The position numbers and the translations under genes are program-made. Source: a virus (Duplodnaviria > Caudoviricetes). Taken from it: a stretch of DNA of 64,000 nucleotides. Shown here in pieces: positions 44,259 to 49,553 of this stretch. The stretch covers positions 8,447 to 72,446 of IMG/VR virus record IMGVR_UViG_3300005805_009498; one strand, given 5' to 3'. Within the stretch, counting starts at the first letter, position 1, and each line of letters opens with the position of its first letter. The notes beneath the pieces are model-generated. The model worked only from the letters and a program-made list of their open reading frames with translations, made no database searches and had not been told where the DNA came from.

Positions 44259-44261
44259 AAA

Positions 44262-44291
44262 AAATAAAGGGCGCTTTTGCGCCCTTTATTT
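44262..44291. terminator. Rho-independent terminator ending the 49553-44286 operon
   Basis: 13-bp stem aaataaagggcgc-tttt-gcgccctttattt, with a T-run on the minus strand. Confidence 0.9.
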
Positions 44292-44645
44292 TATCTTTAT
44301 CACTTGATCGACGTGTTTGTGTAGCCTCTTCAAAGAATCGTTGTCCAACAAAAAGGATTTCTTTATCTCTATTTCAAGAGACAACAGCTCCTTTTTTATG
44401 TTTTTCACCAGTTCAACCGATATTGAGGGGTTGATATACTGAATGCTACTTTTCTTTTTCTTTTTGGCAAACTCAAATTCTTCCTTTAATATTAGATTCA
44501 TAAGGTAAACAGAAGTGTTTTCCATCTGTCCGTCTGAATTCTTTTTCAATCTTAGAAGTATTTTGTTTACATCTATGACATACGGTTTGGATCCCGTAGC
44601 GTACTTCGGTGCGTTGGATTTCTCCTTAGAAAAAATCAGGTTCAT
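44286..44645 (-). CDS. Hypothetical protein
   Basis: 119 aa, 4-nt overlap with the upstream gene, ends in the terminator. Confidence 0.7.
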   Translation of the reverse strand: MNLIFSKEKSNAPKYATGSKPYVIDVNKILLRLKKNSDGQMENTSVYLMNLILKEEFEFAKKKKKSSIQYINPSISVELVKNIKKELLSLEIEIKKSFLLDNDSLKRLHKHVDQVIKIK

Positions 44646-45648: not shown

Positions 45649-45952
45649 CGAAGAGCGTTATTATATTTTCTTGATAAAACTTTTTTCTATCTTCCTGCAT
45701 TGTATCTATGGTGTTGGTTATCATTTCCTTAAGAAATTCTAGATTTTCTTTAAAGAATATGTTTACCCCTCTTTTAGAGACATCGTCGGAATTTGATGTG
45801 AAGTTTTTTGGAATCTCGTTTATTCTCCAAAACAATAGTGGACGACAATCCACAAATTTTATGTTTACCTCTTTCCATCCGTTTGGCTTTACGGTTATCG
45901 TTTCACAAAGATCCCATTCTATGTCGTTTTCAATCTTGTAGTCTATCTTCAT
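45641..45952 (-). CDS. Hypothetical protein
   Basis: 103 aa, overlaps both neighbours. Confidence 0.7.
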   Translation of the reverse strand: MKIDYKIENDIEWDLCETITVKPNGWKEVNIKFVDCRPLLFWRINEIPKNFTSNSDDVSKRGVNIFFKENLEFLKEMITNTIDTMQEDRKKFYQENIITLFDE

Positions 45953-46647
45953 GCGTTAATTCCCCCTATTACCCTTGGCCAATAAACATCTGGGGATATT
46001 CCCATCAACTGTATCACCAATTCCAATTCCTTATCGGCGTTAAGACCATTAGGAAGATTCCAATGATGGCTTTCTACCGGTTTCACGTGAGAGGCTTTAA
46101 CATCGTCTATTATAGCAAGTCTTTCGTAATTAAGTTCCCTTGCCCATAGATAATCTTGCGCCCACCCTGAATATGTTATGGTGAATGTTCCAAGAACACG
46201 TCTTAGCGCCGATGTCTTAAACAACGGACACATTATCTCAACATAGTTTGTGTATCTAATGAACTTGGTTTGATCGTTCAATACTAATGGAAAACTATAG
46301 TAACTGTCATGGGTTAACGATGGCTGACATATATTTAGATTATAATCCTGCGCAATCGTAAACAATCTAGCTATCTCGGTTGGATCAAGATGAACATCGT
46401 AATCAGGCATCCATATCCAATCATACTGATCGAGTATGTCGTACTTTTCGATGAACCTCTTGTATATGTGATGTTTGTACCCTTTGTCTTTCACATAATA
46501 CTTTGCTGTTCCATACACCTGAGGATCGTCGTTCCATTCGTCAGGGTTGAAATTTATAAGAGCAAGATCAAATCCGCATAGTTTAAAGTCTTTGTCGTTA
46601 TAAAATCCCCCCTCGGCGCTTGTAGCTATGACGAGGTTTCTTTTCAT
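45949..46647 (-). CDS. DUF707-family GT-A glycosyltransferase-like protein
   Basis: YDWIWMPDYD (DxD), ICQPSL, YVEIMCPLF and SGWAQDYLW match the DUF707 pattern. Confidence 0.8.
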   Translation of the reverse strand: MKRNLVIATSAEGGFYNDKDFKLCGFDLALINFNPDEWNDDPQVYGTAKYYVKDKGYKHHIYKRFIEKYDILDQYDWIWMPDYDVHLDPTEIARLFTIAQDYNLNICQPSLTHDSYYSFPLVLNDQTKFIRYTNYVEIMCPLFKTSALRRVLGTFTITYSGWAQDYLWARELNYERLAIIDDVKASHVKPVESHHWNLPNGLNADKELELVIQLMGISPDVYWPRVIGGINA

Positions 46648-46883
46648 TGCTGTGTTTGTTCTTCTTGCTGCTGTGTAGCGTTTACCGATTCTACAGAGCG
46701 ATCAGGTCTAAAAAACACTATTGCATCATAAATGATCTTGGCTTCTTGAATTGAATATGCGCCAAGTCTTGTTGCGTGTTCTGCCGCGTTTACGAGAACG
46801 TTTATCGCCTTAGCTGGATCGTCTATCACATACGCAGGTGTTTGTGGACGTTCTGGTTGCGGTGTTTGTTCGGTTGTTTCCAT
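46644..46883 (-). CDS. Small hypothetical protein
   Basis: 79 aa, TAATG and ATGA coupling; GAYSIQEAKIIYDAI helix. Confidence 0.7.
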   Translation of the reverse strand: METTEQTPQPERPQTPAYVIDDPAKAINVLVNAAEHATRLGAYSIQEAKIIYDAIVFFRPDRSVESVNATQQQEEQTQQ

Positions 46884-47731
46884 TATTCCTCTACGAAAAA
46901 TTTGTTAAATATGTCGATGTAATCTTGTGTTTTAAGAACCGAAAAATCTTCTATAGATTCCATGTGTTCGTTAAAACGCTTTGCTTGTATTGATATTCCA
47001 GTATTTGGATCAAAGATCGGCTTAGTTATCTTTAGCTCTATATCATTATTTGAATTTGGATTTTCCTTTCTCAATTCTTGTACCAGAGAGAAATGTCTCT
47101 CGTAATAATGAGTATTATCAGAGCAATGATAGTAGGTTCCAACTTCGAGTTCGTTGTATTTTTCCTTTAGAAGAAGGTACATCGATTGATAAACAACAGA
47201 AAAGAACGGCGCATCGTATTGAAGACCATAGAATATGTCGTTTGATCTCATCTGTACCTTCATGTTTAGCTTATTATCTCTTATCCAAAAGTTCATATAC
47301 ATTGTACAAACGAAATCCTTAACACCTTGACGTTGATACGCCGGTGTATTAAAAACCATTATGGCTTGACGCGTAGATTTGTCGTTAATAAGGGCATCAT
47401 AGGCCCACTTGAACTGGCTTTTGTTTTGTCTTGAATTTATGATGTATCCGTAATTGGAATTAACACGGTTAAACTCATCTACCAGACTTTTCCAAAAGCT
47501 AGAAAATTCGTTGATTCTATTTATGTTTGTATCTTCACACAGATACCACCATAATTCTCCTATGAAATACTTCCAATTAAAAGCCTTGCTATCGAAGTTC
47601 ATGAGAGGGTATAACGGATCGAACTCAAGGGTGGTAAGATACTCTTCTACGACCTTTAATCCTCTTGGTGAATCTTCGGTTTCCATCCTTGAAAGGAGAG
47701 ACAGAACTTCGCTGTTTAGGGTTTTTTTCAT
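46883..47731 (-). CDS. Thymidylate-synthase-superfamily enzyme of the cytosine-specific type (dCMP hydroxymethylase-like, T4 gp42-like)
   Basis: E59, catalytic C142 (DFVCT), MRSND165, and D173 at the position of E. coli Asn177 / T4 gp42 Asp179; HYY210. Confidence 0.85.
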   Translation of the reverse strand: MKKTLNSEVLSLLSRMETEDSPRGLKVVEEYLTTLEFDPLYPLMNFDSKAFNWKYFIGELWWYLCEDTNINRINEFSSFWKSLVDEFNRVNSNYGYIINSRQNKSQFKWAYDALINDKSTRQAIMVFNTPAYQRQGVKDFVCTMYMNFWIRDNKLNMKVQMRSNDIFYGLQYDAPFFSVVYQSMYLLLKEKYNELEVGTYYHCSDNTHYYERHFSLVQELRKENPNSNNDIELKITKPIFDPNTGISIQAKRFNEHMESIEDFSVLKTQDYIDIFNKFFVEE

Positions 47732-47769: not shown

Positions 47770-48822
47770 CTAAAATAAAGCGATGATTTTTGTTTTTCTC
47801 GTTGGTTTTCCTGTTTCAAAATCATACATGTATGAGTGTCTGGATAGATGTACGGATCCAGGTTTTTCCATACACTGTTCCGCGTATTTTTCAGGGTCCA
47901 TCACATACCATTCATCTGGCCACCTAATGACCATATAATCATGGTCGTAAGAGAAATCGCTAATAAGTCTATTGAATTCCTTTACCGCATCTGATCTTTG
48001 TTGTCTTGTTCCGAAAAAAGGAGATCCTTTATACCATCCGGTTTTTGGGATCTTCCTTTCTTCGTGTTCTATGGGAAGAAGAGAAACCAACCAGACATTT
48101 TCTATTCCTCTATTGTCTTTAAGATCCTTTGCAAACTCTGCATATCTTTTAGCAAGATCAAGCAACGACGCCATTGGATCTTCCTGTCTAAAAATATGAT
48201 GCCTAACGTCTATGTTACCCATGTAAAGGATCACGTTTTTGGTTCCTTCAGGGAAATTAAATTGATCCTTTTTGTTTAAAAACCCGTGTAAAGTTTGGCC
48301 ATCGTTCCTGCTAATGTTTGCCCCTGGTTCATAGATAGAGACAGCATGACTGTCCCCATAGATGAAGGTTTTACTGTTAAGAACAACATCAATTCGAGGA
48401 ATGGACTCTGATATGGACTTATATCGTGAGGCGTCAAGTTCAACCCACTCTTCGCATGCGCCCTTTGCTCTTGAATTTATGAATTCACCGATATCAGGCA
48501 TATCGTGATTCAATATGAATATTTTTCCTTTAAATGATTCTAGCCTTTTTACCCTGTCTGCTACTTCCTTTGTTGCTCCTCCAAATAAGTTGAAAGTTCC
48601 TTGAAACTCCATAGGAAGAAGTATCAACCAAACATCGTAATTATGAATGTTATCGTCCTTAGTAAGGACATCGCATTCTATTTCAAGGCTGTTTAATTGA
48701 CAGCGTATTAGATATGGCCAGGAGGATTTGTGGGATTCTTTTTTTCTGCTATATGACGTAACAACGTCGTCTATGGCAATCCTTTTTCCCCTTAGATCAT
48801 CAAGAGCATCATATATGTTCAT
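47770..48822 (-). CDS. Fusion of a T4 beta-glucosyltransferase-like N-terminal domain and an SGNH hydrolase/acyltransferase domain
   Basis: N-half KRIAI...YLI...CDVLTK...NYDVWLIL...FNLFGG...FKGKIFILNHD parallels T4 BGT (KIAII...YLF...VDIISLK...DYDRLIVV...INFFGG...YKSKIYYLFTD). C-half has GDSH, G175, GNID and SVH blocks. Confidence 0.65.
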   Translation of the reverse strand: MNIYDALDDLRGKRIAIDDVVTSYSRKKESHKSSWPYLIRCQLNSLEIECDVLTKDDNIHNYDVWLILLPMEFQGTFNLFGGATKEVADRVKRLESFKGKIFILNHDMPDIGEFINSRAKGACEEWVELDASRYKSISESIPRIDVVLNSKTFIYGDSHAVSIYEPGANISRNDGQTLHGFLNKKDQFNFPEGTKNVILYMGNIDVRHHIFRQEDPMASLLDLAKRYAEFAKDLKDNRGIENVWLVSLLPIEHEERKIPKTGWYKGSPFFGTRQQRSDAVKEFNRLISDFSYDHDYMVIRWPDEWYVMDPEKYAEQCMEKPGSVHLSRHSYMYDFETGKPTRKTKIIALF

Positions 48823-48824
48823 CT

Positions 48825-49106
48825 TTATTTCTTCTCGTTATGATAGTTCTCTAAACCTTGGATGTATGCGACAGCATCTAAAAGATTATCCCTCTTATGC
48901 TGATAGCTCTCTCTGGAAAATTTAAGGGCTATGAGGGCCTTAAACATGTGATCCGCGCTAAGGTTCATCCCTGTCATACCGTTAAATATCATTGCGGCCC
49001 TTTCCATACCTTCGCTAAATGGGCCATATTGACGATCGGCTTCTTCCGATCGATTGTTAACTATTTCTTCTGCTTGTGTTAATATGCTCATAGATTTATT
49101 ATACAT
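48825..49106 (-). CDS. DUF6378-like all-helical protein (dNTP diphosphohydrolase-like)
   Basis: RQYGPFSE...LIALKFSRE...RDNLLDAVAYI pattern. Confidence 0.7.
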   Translation of the reverse strand: MYNKSMSILTQAEEIVNNRSEEADRQYGPFSEGMERAAMIFNGMTGMNLSADHMFKALIALKFSRESYQHKRDNLLDAVAYIQGLENYHNEKK

Positions 49107-49121
49107 TGTTAGATAGAATTG

Positions 49122-49553
49122 TTATTTATCATAGCCGTTTTCGTTTATCCATCGCAAATACTTTTTTAGTTCCTTGTCCTCTACCGTTATGGAATATACG
49201 CCCTGTTGAAATATCTTCCATGAATCCGAGGCGTACTTTCCCACTCCAGGAAGGGATTCAACGGAATTTCCATCCCAATTTAACCATTTTTCAGAGAATT
49301 TTTTCCACATCTTTGCCCTTCTATTGTAAAATCCTAGAGGCCTTATTATGGATATGATTTCCTCATCCGTTGCAGAACAAAGAGATTTTGCATCAGGAAA
49401 ACGAGAGAAGAACTGGTTTCTTACCTTATCCACTTGTTTGTACCCGGTCTGATTAAGCATCATACAAACCAGGAGCATCTTCCATGGGTCGTCTTGATAG
49501 ATTTCTTGACGATATTTAAAGGGACTGGTAGGGGGCTTTGTCGTTTTTTTCAT
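49122..49553 (-). CDS. MBD4-like HhH-GPD mismatch DNA glycosylase (143 aa; real start at 49553)
   Basis: DPWKMLLVCMMLNQT...RPLGFYNRRAK...LPGVGKYASDSWKIF...EDKELKKY closely follows the MBD4 catalytic domain; the catalytic Asp is present. Confidence 0.9.
   Translation of the reverse strand: MKKTTKPPTSPFKYRQEIYQDDPWKMLLVCMMLNQTGYKQVDKVRNQFFSRFPDAKSLCSATDEEIISIIRPLGFYNRRAKMWKKFSEKWLNWDGNSVESLPGVGKYASDSWKIFQQGVYSITVEDKELKKYLRWINENGYDK

What the first reader, a model, noticed from the sequence alone, without database searches (positions are those of the whole stretch)
47770..48822. T4 beta-glucosyltransferase DNA-binding half fused to an SGNH domain: candidate hmC acyltransferase
Seen: residues ~13-110 follow the T4 BGT N-domain as I recall it, element by element: KRIAI/KIAII, YLI..LNSLEIECDVLTK/YLF..ISEMGLNVDIISLK, NYDVWLIL/DYDRLIVV, N78-L-F80-GG/N70-F-F72-GG, FKGKIFILNHD107/YKSKIYYLFTD100. 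Known: in BGT this loop contacts and flips the target base, and Asp100 is the general base for the 5-hydroxymethyl OH. Seen: the UDP-glucose-binding C-domain is absent; residues ~150-330 carry SGNH blocks instead (GDS158H, G175, GN203ID, SVH325). Known: the SGNH fold includes O-acetyltransferases (OatA-C, PatB, AlgX). Inference: a DNA base-flipping enzyme that adds or removes an acyl group on modified cytosine, a chemistry I do not recognise among described phage modifications. The gene sits directly upstream of the cytosine-type TS homologue.
Basis: partly seen in the sequence, partly recalled or inferred. Interest (0 to 1): 0.93.

Follow-up and report, generated by a model that had tools for sequence, protein, structure and literature searches.

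The report
Glucosyltransferase-front, esterase-back phage DNA-modifying enzyme
A large uncultured phage encodes a widespread, undescribed enzyme that joins the DNA-binding half of phage T4's DNA glucosyltransferase to an esterase/acyltransferase domain, and it most likely acts on hydroxymethylcytosine in the phage's DNA where other phages use a sugar transferase or a DNA kinase.

Summary
Residues about 14-107 are a distant but real homologue of the N-terminal half of T4 beta-glucosyltransferase (BGT). Residues 148-340 are an SGNH fold with an almost invariant Ser158/His159, Asn203 and His325.

Context supports action on DNA. Every larger genome tested that holds the family also has a TS homologue with the signature of a dCMP hydroxymethylase. 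None has the P-loop 5-hmdU DNA kinase or an amino-acid:DNA transferase. The family is repeatedly fused or adjacent to an aGPT-Pplase-like helical protein (Pfam HMUDK_hel, like M6 gp55). Both proteins end in the same "-SLF" tail as the phage's own DNA polymerase, which looks like a sliding-clamp docking tail.

Fused forms occur in cultured Aeromonas phages 31, 44RR2.8t and 25. These were long noted to have gene 42 but no glucosyltransferase.

My best reading is a clamp-tethered hmC-DNA O-acyltransferase that activates or decorates the hydroxymethyl group. The chemistry is untested.

Other agents of this scan met the same hybrid enzyme on other genomes. I found no paper describing it in the held library.

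The parts
47770..48822 (-). BGT-N/SGNH hybrid gene, 350 aa (the finding)
   Evidence: ORF. Matches phrog_13881 at E 1.6e-63 and phrog_17781 at 1.4e-48, both of unknown function. 212 relatives by the word-index search, 393 by HMMER representatives, 574 or more IMG/VR loci.
48382..48822 (-). N-domain, residues 1-147: distant homologue of the N-terminal (DNA/acceptor) half of T4 beta-glucosyltransferase. Conserved S30-H31, W35, M71-E-F, G75, N78-x-F80-G-G82, P109, R118
   Evidence: hhalign 94%. VIA top hit 1c3j, Z 6.2. Foldseek TMq 0.53. PF09198 is the best Pfam family. Conservation.
47803..48381 (-). SGNH-fold domain, residues 148-340: G156-D-S158-H159 (block I), D174-G175 (II), G202-N203-x-D205 (III), S323-V-H325 (V). 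Further invariant residues T177, R207, H209, R256, R276, E319
   Evidence: Fold Z 12-13 to GDSL esterases. Pfam Lipase_GDSL 19.1 bits, below its 23.6 cut-off. Conservation. Motifs sit at the strand-helix junctions expected for SGNH.
47773..47802 (-). Low-confidence C-terminal tail ending ...KIIALF: clamp-docking-like peptide
   Evidence: pLDDT below 50 for residues 347-350. The -LF end is present in 72/80 family loci and 44/55 partner proteins, and in no other neighbour family. Split DNA polymerase C-halves in L081 and L070 end ...ASALF and ...STSLF. The Aeromonas fusion ends SLDGLFAI, against T4 gp43 ...SLDFLFG.
48825..49106 (-). DUF6378 gene (93 aa), translationally coupled upstream partner
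   Evidence: PF19905 at E 2.6e-9. Present in 75/80 related loci, immediately upstream in 61 of them and in most of those overlapping the target's start, at 63-94% identity. 44 invariant columns of about 88.
46883..47731 (-). TS homologue with the dCMP hydroxymethylase signature: catalytic Cys, Asp at E. coli positions 169 and 177
   Evidence: Best PDB hit is T4 dCMP hydroxymethylase 1b49, E 2.6e-20. Motif MRSNDIFYGLQYD. The D169-retained rule against 5-hydroxy-dCMP synthases comes from PMC13326640.
49122..49724 (-). HhH-GPD DNA glycosylase-like gene, first gene of the operon. The true start is probably the ATG near 49553
   Evidence: PF00730 at E 1.3e-10. Weak nth/mutY matches. The same position is conserved in L002, L003, L068, L072 and L079.
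45949..46647 (-). DUF707-like (GT-A-like) gene in the same operon
   Evidence: PF05212 at E 3.5e-6. Conserved only in the closest relatives, 2 loci.
44261..44292 (.). 14-bp-stem hairpin with T/A runs on both sides: likely end of the minus-strand operon
   Evidence: Terminator scan. A promoter-like site at 49587-49560(-) lies upstream of the glycosylase gene, but promoter matches overall are not above chance.

Best explanation
The gene encodes a DNA-directed tailoring enzyme of a kinase-less 5-hydroxymethylcytosine (5hmC) hypermodification pathway.

Proposed steps:
1. The neighbouring TS homologue makes 5hm-dCMP, which is built into phage DNA. This is inferred from its signature.
2. The BGT-like N-domain recognises 5hmC in DNA, as the same half of T4 BGT does. 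This is inferred from homology.
3. The C-terminal tail holds the enzyme on the sliding clamp behind the replisome. This is inferred from likeness to the polymerase tail.
4. The SGNH domain uses Ser158/His325 and its oxyanion hole to take an acyl group from a cytoplasmic donor and pass it to the 5-CH2OH group, giving a 5-acyloxymethylcytosine. This is inferred from the fold and the intact active-site residues.
5. In most lineages the ester is not the end product. It is an activated leaving group that plays the part of the phosphate installed by 5-HMUDK in thymidine pathways. The parallel is O-acetylserine versus O-phosphoserine. The fused or adjacent aGPT-Pplase-like (HMUDK_hel) protein then replaces the acyl group with the final substituent.
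6. Lineage-specific genes supply or trim that substituent: a PLP-type enzyme, an FkbM methyltransferase, an inositol-3-phosphate-synthase-like enzyme, or a solute symporter.
For: 1. The N-domain is homologous to the acceptor half of T4 BGT.
2. The C-domain is an SGNH fold, with catalytic Ser, His and oxyanion Asn conserved in 236-266 of 266 members.
3. The gene is adjacent to a TS homologue with Asp at both E. coli positions 169 and 177, the 5hm-dCMP type. Orthologues or gp42-like genes with the same signature occur in G001, G002, G003, G007, G008, G009 and Aeromonas phage 31. T4 itself has gene 42 next to b-gt.
4. There are recurrent fusions to the HMUDK_hel-type protein, in both orders and with two subfamilies: P0173 of the Aeromonas type, P0160 with an FkbM domain as well, and P0126, P0131, P0137, P0143, P0166, P0180, P0209 and P0236. 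The partner gene also lies within 1-4 genes in most of 80 loci.
5. The partner has no Walker A motif. The P-loop kinase PF18748 and the AADT family PF18724 are absent from G001-G003 and from the complete Aeromonas phage 31 genome. Both are found in the phage M6 control, which lacks this family.
6. Only the target and its partner share the -[SA]LF C-terminal tail with the lineage's DNA polymerase.
7. Aeromonas phages 44RR, 31 and 25 were reported to have genes 42 and 56 but no glucosyltransferase (PMC2993671). They carry the fused form.
Against: - No experiment exists and no acyl donor is identified.
- The SGNH fold is equally typical of hydrolases. Sequence cannot tell transfer from hydrolysis.
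- The fold match of the N-domain to BGT (Z 6.2) is within 1 Z of generic Rossmann-like domains, so homology rests mainly on the profile comparison.
- The block V acid is Ser323, not Asp. E319 may substitute, which is a guess.
- The function of the HMUDK_hel family is itself unproven. M6 gp55 was not needed for glycine transfer in vitro (PMC8989533).
- In the window's own clade the partner gene is not adjacent. It lies about 75 kb away in G001 and is not in the 72-kb fragment.
- Absence of a kinase rests on profile searches of genomes that are 74-88% complete, plus one complete genome.
- I could not inspect model coordinates to see whether Ser158 faces the BGT-like cleft.
Confidence: 0.45

Rival explanations
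1. The enzyme is a terminal decorating O-acyltransferase, and 5-acyloxymethylcytosine (for example acetyl-hmC) is the final base in virion DNA. The helical partner and other neighbours do something else.
For: The same architecture and conservation evidence as the best explanation. A carbamate ester of hmC is a proven final phage modification made by a different enzyme (PMC8670742). In the window's clade the partner gene is not in the operon.
Against: The tight and repeated fusion with the aGPT-Pplase-like protein, and the shared clamp tail, argue for two consecutive steps on one substrate. Simple esters on a benzylic-type 5-CH2 position are labile, which makes them a poor permanent mark.
Confidence: 0.2
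2. The SGNH domain is a hydrolase (esterase or amidase) that trims or deprotects a group already attached to the base by the helical partner. Alternatively it removes an acyl protecting group from a precursor. The BGT-like domain only targets it to modified DNA.
For: Most SGNH members are hydrolases. Later trimming steps are usual in thymidine hypermodification: decarboxylase, lyase (PMC8989533).
Against: This leaves the pathway without any activating enzyme for the hydroxymethyl group, since both the kinase and AADT are absent. The family is the one component present in every clade besides the hydroxymethylase, which fits a core step rather than a tailoring step.
Confidence: 0.17
3. The protein does not act on polymeric DNA. 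It works on free nucleotides, on a sugar or cyclitol precursor, or on a host envelope polymer. The BGT likeness is only a shared Rossmann-like scaffold.
For: The fold Z of 6.2 is not far above unrelated Rossmann folds. Neighbours include nucleotide-pool genes: MazG, DUF6378, and RNR in Tenacibaculum phage PTm1. The known hmC carbamoyltransferase also accepts 5hm-dCTP (PMC8670742).
Against: Profile-profile probability is 94% specifically to BGT, and BGT is the best Pfam family in an unbiased scan. The polymerase-like clamp tail and the fusion to a DNA-hypermodification protein also argue against it.
Confidence: 0.1

Closest known systems
T4 beta-glucosyltransferase (BGT, GT-B fold, Pfam PF09198; PDB 1c3j, 1qkj, 1j39)
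   Same: The N-terminal Rossmann-like half is homologous (hhalign 94%, residues 14-107 to BGT 2-100), including the N-x-F-G-G loop. The gene sits next to a dCMP-hydroxymethylase-type gene, as b-gt sits next to gene 42 in T4. The presumed substrate is 5hmC in DNA.
   Different: There is no UDP-glucose-binding C-domain; an SGNH domain stands in its place. The catalytic Asp100 equivalent is not conserved. A C-terminal clamp-like tail is added. It is not a glycosyltransferase.
SGNH/GDSL hydrolase-acyltransferase superfamily (for example PAF-AH 1bwp, sialate O-acetylesterase 7pzg, PatB 7tjb, OatA-C 6vjp)
   Same: The fold matches (Z 10-13). The nucleophile Ser in GDS, the oxyanion Gly and Asn, and the block V His are all in their canonical places.
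   Different: Sequence is below Pfam's threshold. Block I reads GDSH with an invariant His. Block V reads S-V-H, not D-x-x-H. There are extra invariant Arg, His and Glu residues (R207, H209, R256, R276, E319). It is cytoplasmic, fused to a DNA-enzyme domain, and set in a DNA-modification context that no described SGNH member in the held library shares.
Thymidine hypermodification pathways of phages M6, ViI, PaMx11, PhiW-14 and SP10: dUMP hydroxymethylase, 5-HMUDK P-loop kinase, amino acid:DNA transferase, then PLP, rSAM or FAD tailoring (PMC5889632, PMC8989533)
   Same: The logic is the same: a hydroxymethyl pyrimidine is made as a nucleotide and then modified after replication on DNA. An aGPT-Pplase-related helical protein (PF18723, like M6 gp55) is present, along with PLP-like and other tailoring genes.
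   Different: The base is cytosine, not thymine (Asp-type TS). There is no P-loop kinase and no PF18724 AADT. The BGT-N/SGNH enzyme is the candidate activating step.
5-hydroxymethylcytosine carbamoyltransferase (TobZ-like), which makes 5-carbamoyloxymethylcytosine (PMC8670742)
   Same: An ester-type (carbamate) group is placed on the hydroxyl of 5hmC. The gene is paired with a TS homologue in phage contigs.
   Different: The fold and cofactors are unrelated (carbamoyl phosphate plus ATP). There is no BGT-like domain, no helical partner and no clamp tail.

Membership tests
T4 beta-glucosyltransferase family (PF09198, GT-B) | N-terminal Rossmann-like acceptor/DNA-binding domain homologous to BGT residues 1-about 140 | tested here: met
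   hhalign A2 vs A3: 94%, E 1.4e-7. VIA top hit 1c3j: Z 6.2, 106 aa. PF09198 is the best Pfam family for 3 of 25 N-domains, E 7.7e-4.
T4 beta-glucosyltransferase family (PF09198, GT-B) | C-terminal UDP-glucose-binding Rossmann domain | tested here: not met
   The hhalign match ends at BGT residue 100-101. Residues 148-350 fold as SGNH.
T4 beta-glucosyltransferase family (PF09198, GT-B) | Catalytic base Asp100 (invariant in the BGT alignment A3) | tested here: not met
   The aligned position 107 is E 89, P 58, D 52 of 257 family members. D100 is invariant in A3.
SGNH/GDSL hydrolase superfamily | Three-layer alpha/beta/alpha SGNH fold | tested here: met
   Z 12-13, 158-183 residues aligned, to many GDSL esterases. 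Foldseek probability 1.00.
SGNH/GDSL hydrolase superfamily | Block I nucleophile Ser in G-D-S after strand 1 | tested here: met
   G156-D157-S158 in 265-266 of 266 members, at the strand 152-156 / helix 158-163 junction.
SGNH/GDSL hydrolase superfamily | Oxyanion-hole Gly (block II) and Asn (block III) | tested here: met
   G175 236/266. N203 236/266, with Ser in 28. Structural equivalence is inferred from position in the fold, not from a residue-level superposition.
SGNH/GDSL hydrolase superfamily | Block V D-x-x-H catalytic acid and base | tested here: inconclusive
   H325 is 263/264, but the -3 position is Ser323 (251/264), not Asp. Invariant E319 could serve as the acid. This was not checked in 3D.
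SGNH/GDSL hydrolase superfamily | Score above the Pfam Lipase_GDSL gathering threshold | tested here: not met
   19.1 bits against a cut-off of 23.6, and the match covers only residues 165-316.
5-hmdU DNA kinase (5-HMUDK, PF18748) | P-loop (Walker A) kinase domain in the protein, its fusions, or the genome | tested here: not met
   No Walker A in the target's fusions or partners. PF18748 is absent from G001-G003 and Aeromonas phage 31 and present in the M6 control.
Kinase-dependent thymidine-type hypermodification cluster | Amino acid:DNA transferase (PF18724) in the genome | tested here: not met
   0 of 5 target-bearing genomes. The M6 control is positive at E 2.3e-48.
Sliding-clamp clients of T4-like phages (gp43, gp55, gp33-type C-terminal tails) | C-terminal hydrophobic peptide like that of the cognate DNA polymerase | tested here: met
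   An -[SA]LF end on target and partner only. Polymerase C-halves end ASALF and STSLF. The Aeromonas fusion ends SLDGLFAI against T4 gp43 SLDFLFG. Binding to the clamp itself was not tested.

The most novel reading that the evidence does not exclude
Phage DNA hypermodification can start from an acyl-activated base. A clamp-riding SGNH acyltransferase with a BGT-derived hmC-recognition domain esterifies 5hmC in newly made DNA. An aGPT-Pplase-like partner then swaps the acyl group for lineage-specific groups, which may include a cyclitol. An inositol-3-phosphate-synthase-like gene follows the enzyme in most aquatic loci, and an SGLT/SMIT-type sodium:solute symporter gene precedes the fused enzyme in Aeromonas phages. 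This would be a new enzymatic route and probably a set of undescribed cytosine bases, among them the unknown modification of Aeromonas phages 31, 44RR and 25.
Probability: 0.3. Interest if true: 0.9.

Novelty: new variant of a known kind. Interest (0 to 1): 0.8.

Why it matters
Post-replicative hypermodification of hydroxymethyl pyrimidines is known in two forms: glycosyl transfer to hmC, and kinase plus amino-acid transfer on hmU. This family suggests a third entry point. It reuses the DNA-recognition half of a glucosyltransferase with esterase-type chemistry and works without a kinase.

It is abundant: 574 or more loci in IMG/VR, and nearly 400 50%-identity clusters. It occurs in large aquatic myoviruses and in cultured T4-like Aeromonas phages.

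It gives a concrete candidate for a question left open in 2010: what, if anything, decorates hmC in phages that have gene 42 but no glucosyltransferase.

New DNA bases and the enzymes that write them are of practical use for restriction and CRISPR evasion studies, and for hmC-selective labelling chemistry.

Tried and rejected
I rejected this. PF18723 corresponds to M6 gp55, a helical aGPT-Pplase-type protein. The real kinase is M6 gp54 (PF18748). The partners have no Walker A motif. Notes from earlier agents of this scan prompted the re-check.
2. Sequence searches of the whole protein and of profiles A1 and A2 against PDB sequences gave only chance hits: pectate lyase, TASOR, uS15. HMMER cannot see either domain's relatives.
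3. BLASTP of the protein against T4 BGT is not significant. The NLFGG region scores E 0.16.
4. hhalign of the c24-type partner against the c5-type partner, the MIPS-like protein and FkbM found nothing. hhalign of A4 against M6 gp55 and gp51 single sequences also found nothing. The c24 to HMUDK_hel link rests on the ESM Atlas feature search (score 0.98; 11-36% of members of the nearest clusters carry PF18723) and on a joint alignment.
5. A complex-prediction job for the target with DUF6378 could not be run.
6. No PDB relative of DUF6378 was found. Its function stays open.
7. PF18723 did not detect the partner in G001. The family profile A4 did.
8. I considered 5-hydroxy-dCMP chemistry for the TS homologue and set it aside. 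Asp169 (E. coli numbering) is retained, whereas proven 5ho-dCMP synthases carry Asn.
9. Literature searches for SGNH or GDSL together with hydroxymethylcytosine or phage DNA modification returned nothing. Iyer et al. 2013 could not be read.
Full report
THE OBJECT

window:47770-48822 (minus strand) is a 350-aa ORF. Its ATG lies 2 nt after the stop of an upstream 93-aa DUF6378 gene. Its own stop lies 38 nt before a TS homologue. The gene sits in a run of tightly packed minus-strand genes between the major capsid gene and other structural genes of a large phage. CheckV rates the 72-kb record as about 24% complete. The run starts with an HhH-GPD glycosylase-like gene and ends at a strong hairpin at 44261-44292.

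Pfam gives only a sub-threshold Lipase_GDSL match (19.1 bits against a cut-off of 23.6). PHROGs places the protein in two families of unknown function, phrog_13881 and phrog_17781.

The family is large:
- 212 relatives in the 90% clusters.
- 393 clusters at 50% identity.
- At least 574 loci in IMG/VR.

THE TWO DOMAINS

An AlphaFold2 model of the whole protein is confident (pLDDT 89.8, pTM 0.87).

Residues 148-350 match GDSL/SGNH esterases and acyltransferases at Z 12-13 over 158-183 residues. The motifs sit where SGNH blocks belong. G156-D-S158-H159 follows the first strand. G202-N203-I-D205 follows the third strand. H325 lies near the C-terminus.

Conservation in 266 family members:
- S158, H159, T177, D205 and H209 are invariant; R256, R276 and E319 are invariant wherever the position is covered.
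- H325 is 263/264.
- N203 is 236/266, with Ser in 28.
- G175 is 236/266.
- The residue three before the His is Ser323, not the usual Asp.

The N-domain was modelled alone from 25 sequences taken from fetched loci (pLDDT 91.7). Four lines of evidence link it to T4 BGT.
- In an all-against-48,161-chain structural comparison the top hit is T4 beta-glucosyltransferase: 1c3j, Z 6.2, rmsd 3.5 A, 106 residues, model 13-147 onto chain 1-138. T4 alpha-glucosyltransferase is also in the top ten. The margin over receiver, TIR and other Rossmann-like domains is below 1 Z unit.
- Foldseek gives BGT the best query-normalised TM-score, 0.53.
- I fetched T4 b-gt and six homologues down to 32% identity.
- In an unbiased scan of each N-domain against all of Pfam, PF09198 (T4 beta-glucosyltransferase) was the most frequently matched family, with best E 7.7e-4.

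I conclude that the N-domain is a true but distant homologue of the acceptor half of BGT.

The N-x-F-G-G loop is conserved: N78 253/258, G82 249/258. The residue aligned with BGT's catalytic Asp100 is not conserved: E 89, P 58, D 52 of 257.

THE NEIGHBOURING TS HOMOLOGUE

Its best solved relative is T4 dCMP hydroxymethylase (E 2.6e-20). It keeps the catalytic Cys and has Asp at the position of T4 D179 (E. coli N177), which sets cytosine specificity. It also keeps Asp at E. coli position 169. Lee et al. 2026 found Asn there in every TS homologue that makes 5-hydroxy-dCMP rather than 5-hydroxymethyl-dCMP (PMC13326640). The signature is therefore that of a dCMP hydroxymethylase.

The same signature is found in these genomes:
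- The adjacent genes of the window's close relatives L003, L004 and L068; in L002 the contig ends before the position of E. coli 177.
- Orthologues elsewhere in five large contigs of the commoner clade (G002, G003, G007, G008, G009).
- The gp42-like gene of Aeromonas phage 31.

GENOMIC COMPANY

I called ORFs in 80 IMG/VR loci and clustered the neighbours.
- DUF6378 is present in 75 of 80 loci, immediately upstream in 61 and mostly overlapping the target's start. It is far more conserved than the enzyme: 63-94% identity against 37-73%. It has 44 invariant columns of about 88.
- In most loci the downstream genes are, in order: an inositol-3-phosphate-synthase-like gene (TIGR03450, E 1e-85), a 132-aa gene, an FkbM-type methyltransferase, a 350-aa protein matching Pfam PF18723, a MazG-like pyrophosphohydrolase, and the split DNA polymerase.
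- More divergent clades have a second subfamily of the PF18723-like protein directly downstream (c24).

Fusions are frequent:
- Target plus PF18723-type protein in Aeromonas phages (795 aa).
- Target plus c24-type protein in eight representative clusters.
- An FkbM, PF18723-type, target triple fusion.

CORRECTING THE PARTNER'S IDENTITY

PF18723 is named '5-hmdU DNA kinase, helical domain', and I first took the partner for a kinase. Notes by earlier agents of this scan described similar cassettes as kinase-less, so I tested it.

In phage M6:
- PF18723 matches gp55, a 323-aa helical aGPT-Pplase-type protein.
- The proven kinase is gp54, which matches PF18748.
- The proven glycine:DNA transferase is gp51, which matches PF18724.

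Further results:
- None of the partners or fusions has a Walker A motif.
- PF18748 and PF18724 are absent from G001 (88% complete), G002, G003 and the complete Aeromonas phage 31 genome. Both ring in M6.
- M6 lacks the BGT-N/SGNH family.
- G001 shares the window's gene order. It has the c24-type partner about 75 kb from the enzyme, overlapping a weak PLP-enzyme (PALP) match.
- The window's own 72-kb fragment has no partner.

A SHARED TAIL

The enzyme's last residues are modelled with low confidence and end in -ALF.

Across the loci, 72 of 80 enzymes and 44 of 55 c5-type partners end in -[S/A/T/C]LF. None of the other neighbour families does. These two families account for 116 of the 144 LF-ending genes among 1,252 called genes.

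The tail tracks the lineage's DNA polymerase:
- The C-terminal halves of the split DNA polymerase in L081 and L070 end ...ASALF and ...STSLF.
- The enzymes of the same loci end ...TLALF and ...INSLF.
- The window's closest relatives end ...ALFFDITD and ...ALFLDVTEGV.
- The Aeromonas fusion ends ...SLDGLFAI, against ...SLDFLFG in T4 gp43.

It is established knowledge that the C-terminal tail of T4/RB69 gp43 docks on the gp45 clamp. The likeness therefore suggests that the enzyme and its partner ride the clamp. I tested only the sequence pattern, not binding.

INTERPRETATION

Shown here:
- The architecture.
- The conserved catalytic set.
- The link to hydroxymethylase-type TS genes.
- The fusion with the helical partner.
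- The lack of kinase and AADT in the genomes searched.
- The shared tail.

Inferred:
- The substrate is 5hmC in DNA.
- The SGNH domain transfers an acyl group to the hydroxymethyl oxygen.
- In most lineages the ester serves as a leaving group for the partner, taking the place of the phosphate installed by 5-HMUDK.

The chemical precedent is the use of either O-acyl or O-phospho activation of serine and homoserine before replacement. The AADT mechanism, an exocyclic methylene formed after loss of the C5 substituent (PMC8989533), would tolerate a carboxylate leaving group.

The rivals cannot be excluded from sequence: a terminal acyl decoration, a trimming hydrolase, or action on nucleotides or precursors.

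WHAT IS KNOWN

Petrov et al. 2010 noted that Aeromonas phages 44RR, 31 and 25 carry genes 42 and 56 but no glucosyltransferase. They left open whether another modification exists (PMC2993671). These are exactly the cultured phages that carry the fused enzyme.

An ester-type hmC modification, 5-carbamoyloxymethylcytosine, is known but is made by an unrelated enzyme (PMC8670742).

I found no paper in the held library that links an SGNH enzyme to hmC or to phage DNA modification. The scan's own notes show that other agents met the same hybrid enzyme in several other genomes. The finding is therefore new to the literature I could search, but not new to this scan.

LIMITS

- No coordinates of the models were available, so the relative placement of Ser158 and the BGT-like cleft is unknown.
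- Most genomes are incomplete metagenomic contigs.
- The function of the PF18723 family is itself unproven.

Noticed in passing
window:48825-49106 (-); alignment A5: The DUF6378 protein upstream of the enzyme is extraordinarily conserved: 44 invariant columns of about 88, and 63-94% identity where the enzyme is 37-73%. It overlaps the enzyme's start in most loci. It is absent from Aeromonas phage 31, PTm1, M6 and T4 by PF19905. It has no PDB relative and its function is unknown. Its motifs (N-x-R-x-E-E-x-x-R-x-Y-G ... K-x-S-R-x-S-Y ... D-N-L-L-D) recall, from my memory only, small all-helical nucleotide pyrophosphohydrolase-like phage domains.
   Followed up: partly
L001:4420-5943 (+), Aeromonas phage 31 ORF234c: A phage-encoded sodium:solute symporter (PF00474, E 7e-53; closest NCBIfam PRK10484) lies directly upstream of the enzyme-partner fusion. 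It is annotated only as hypothetical. It may import the group that ends up on the DNA.
   Followed up: partly
L074:11099-12289 (+) and equivalents in 68 loci: An inositol-3-phosphate-synthase-like gene (TIGR03450, E 1e-85; phrog_33138, unknown function) directly follows the enzyme in most aquatic loci. It is followed by a 132-aa gene and an FkbM methyltransferase. This hints at a cyclitol-derived, O-methylated DNA substituent.
   Followed up: partly
L118:8261-9232 (+), phage M6 gp55; Pfam PF18723: The Pfam name 'HMUDK_hel, 5-hmdU DNA kinase helical domain' invites mis-annotation as a kinase. In M6 it is a separate 323-aa protein without a P-loop. The kinase is gp54 (PF18748).
   Followed up: yes
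L110:1444-2118 (+) and L107:6974-7993 (+), Tenacibaculum phage PTm1: PTm1 has a very distant homologue of the enzyme (23% identity) between its RNR genes. It also has a divergent TS homologue with Asn at E. coli position 169 and Asp at 177, the signature reported for 5-hydroxy-dCMP synthases. The genome-search match held one in-frame TAA. No helical partner was found.
   Followed up: partly
L104:3054-6849 (G001:C1): In the 260-kb relative of the window's phage, the c24-type partner gene overlaps a 290-aa gene with a weak PLP-enzyme (PALP) match. It lies near a phosphodiester-glycosidase-like gene (NAGPA, E 7e-15) and a weak pyrimidine-dimer-glycosylase-like gene.
   Followed up: no
L081:10408-11616, L070:11402-12595 and PolB genes of about 30 loci: The family B DNA polymerase of these phages is split into two genes. 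The first is 465-469 aa. The C-terminal half ends in the same -[SA]LF motif as the two modification enzymes.
   Followed up: partly
window:50640-52475 (-): The major capsid protein is 38-42% identical over its whole length to those of Lak megaphages of Prevotella and of a 462-kb uncultured phage. It also matches T4-like cyanophage gp23.
   Followed up: no
window:49122-49724 (-): An HhH-GPD glycosylase-like gene leads the operon and holds the same place in several related loci (L002, L003, L068, L072, L079). A glycosylase-fold protein at the head of a base-modification operon could be a repair enzyme or another base-handling step.
   Followed up: no
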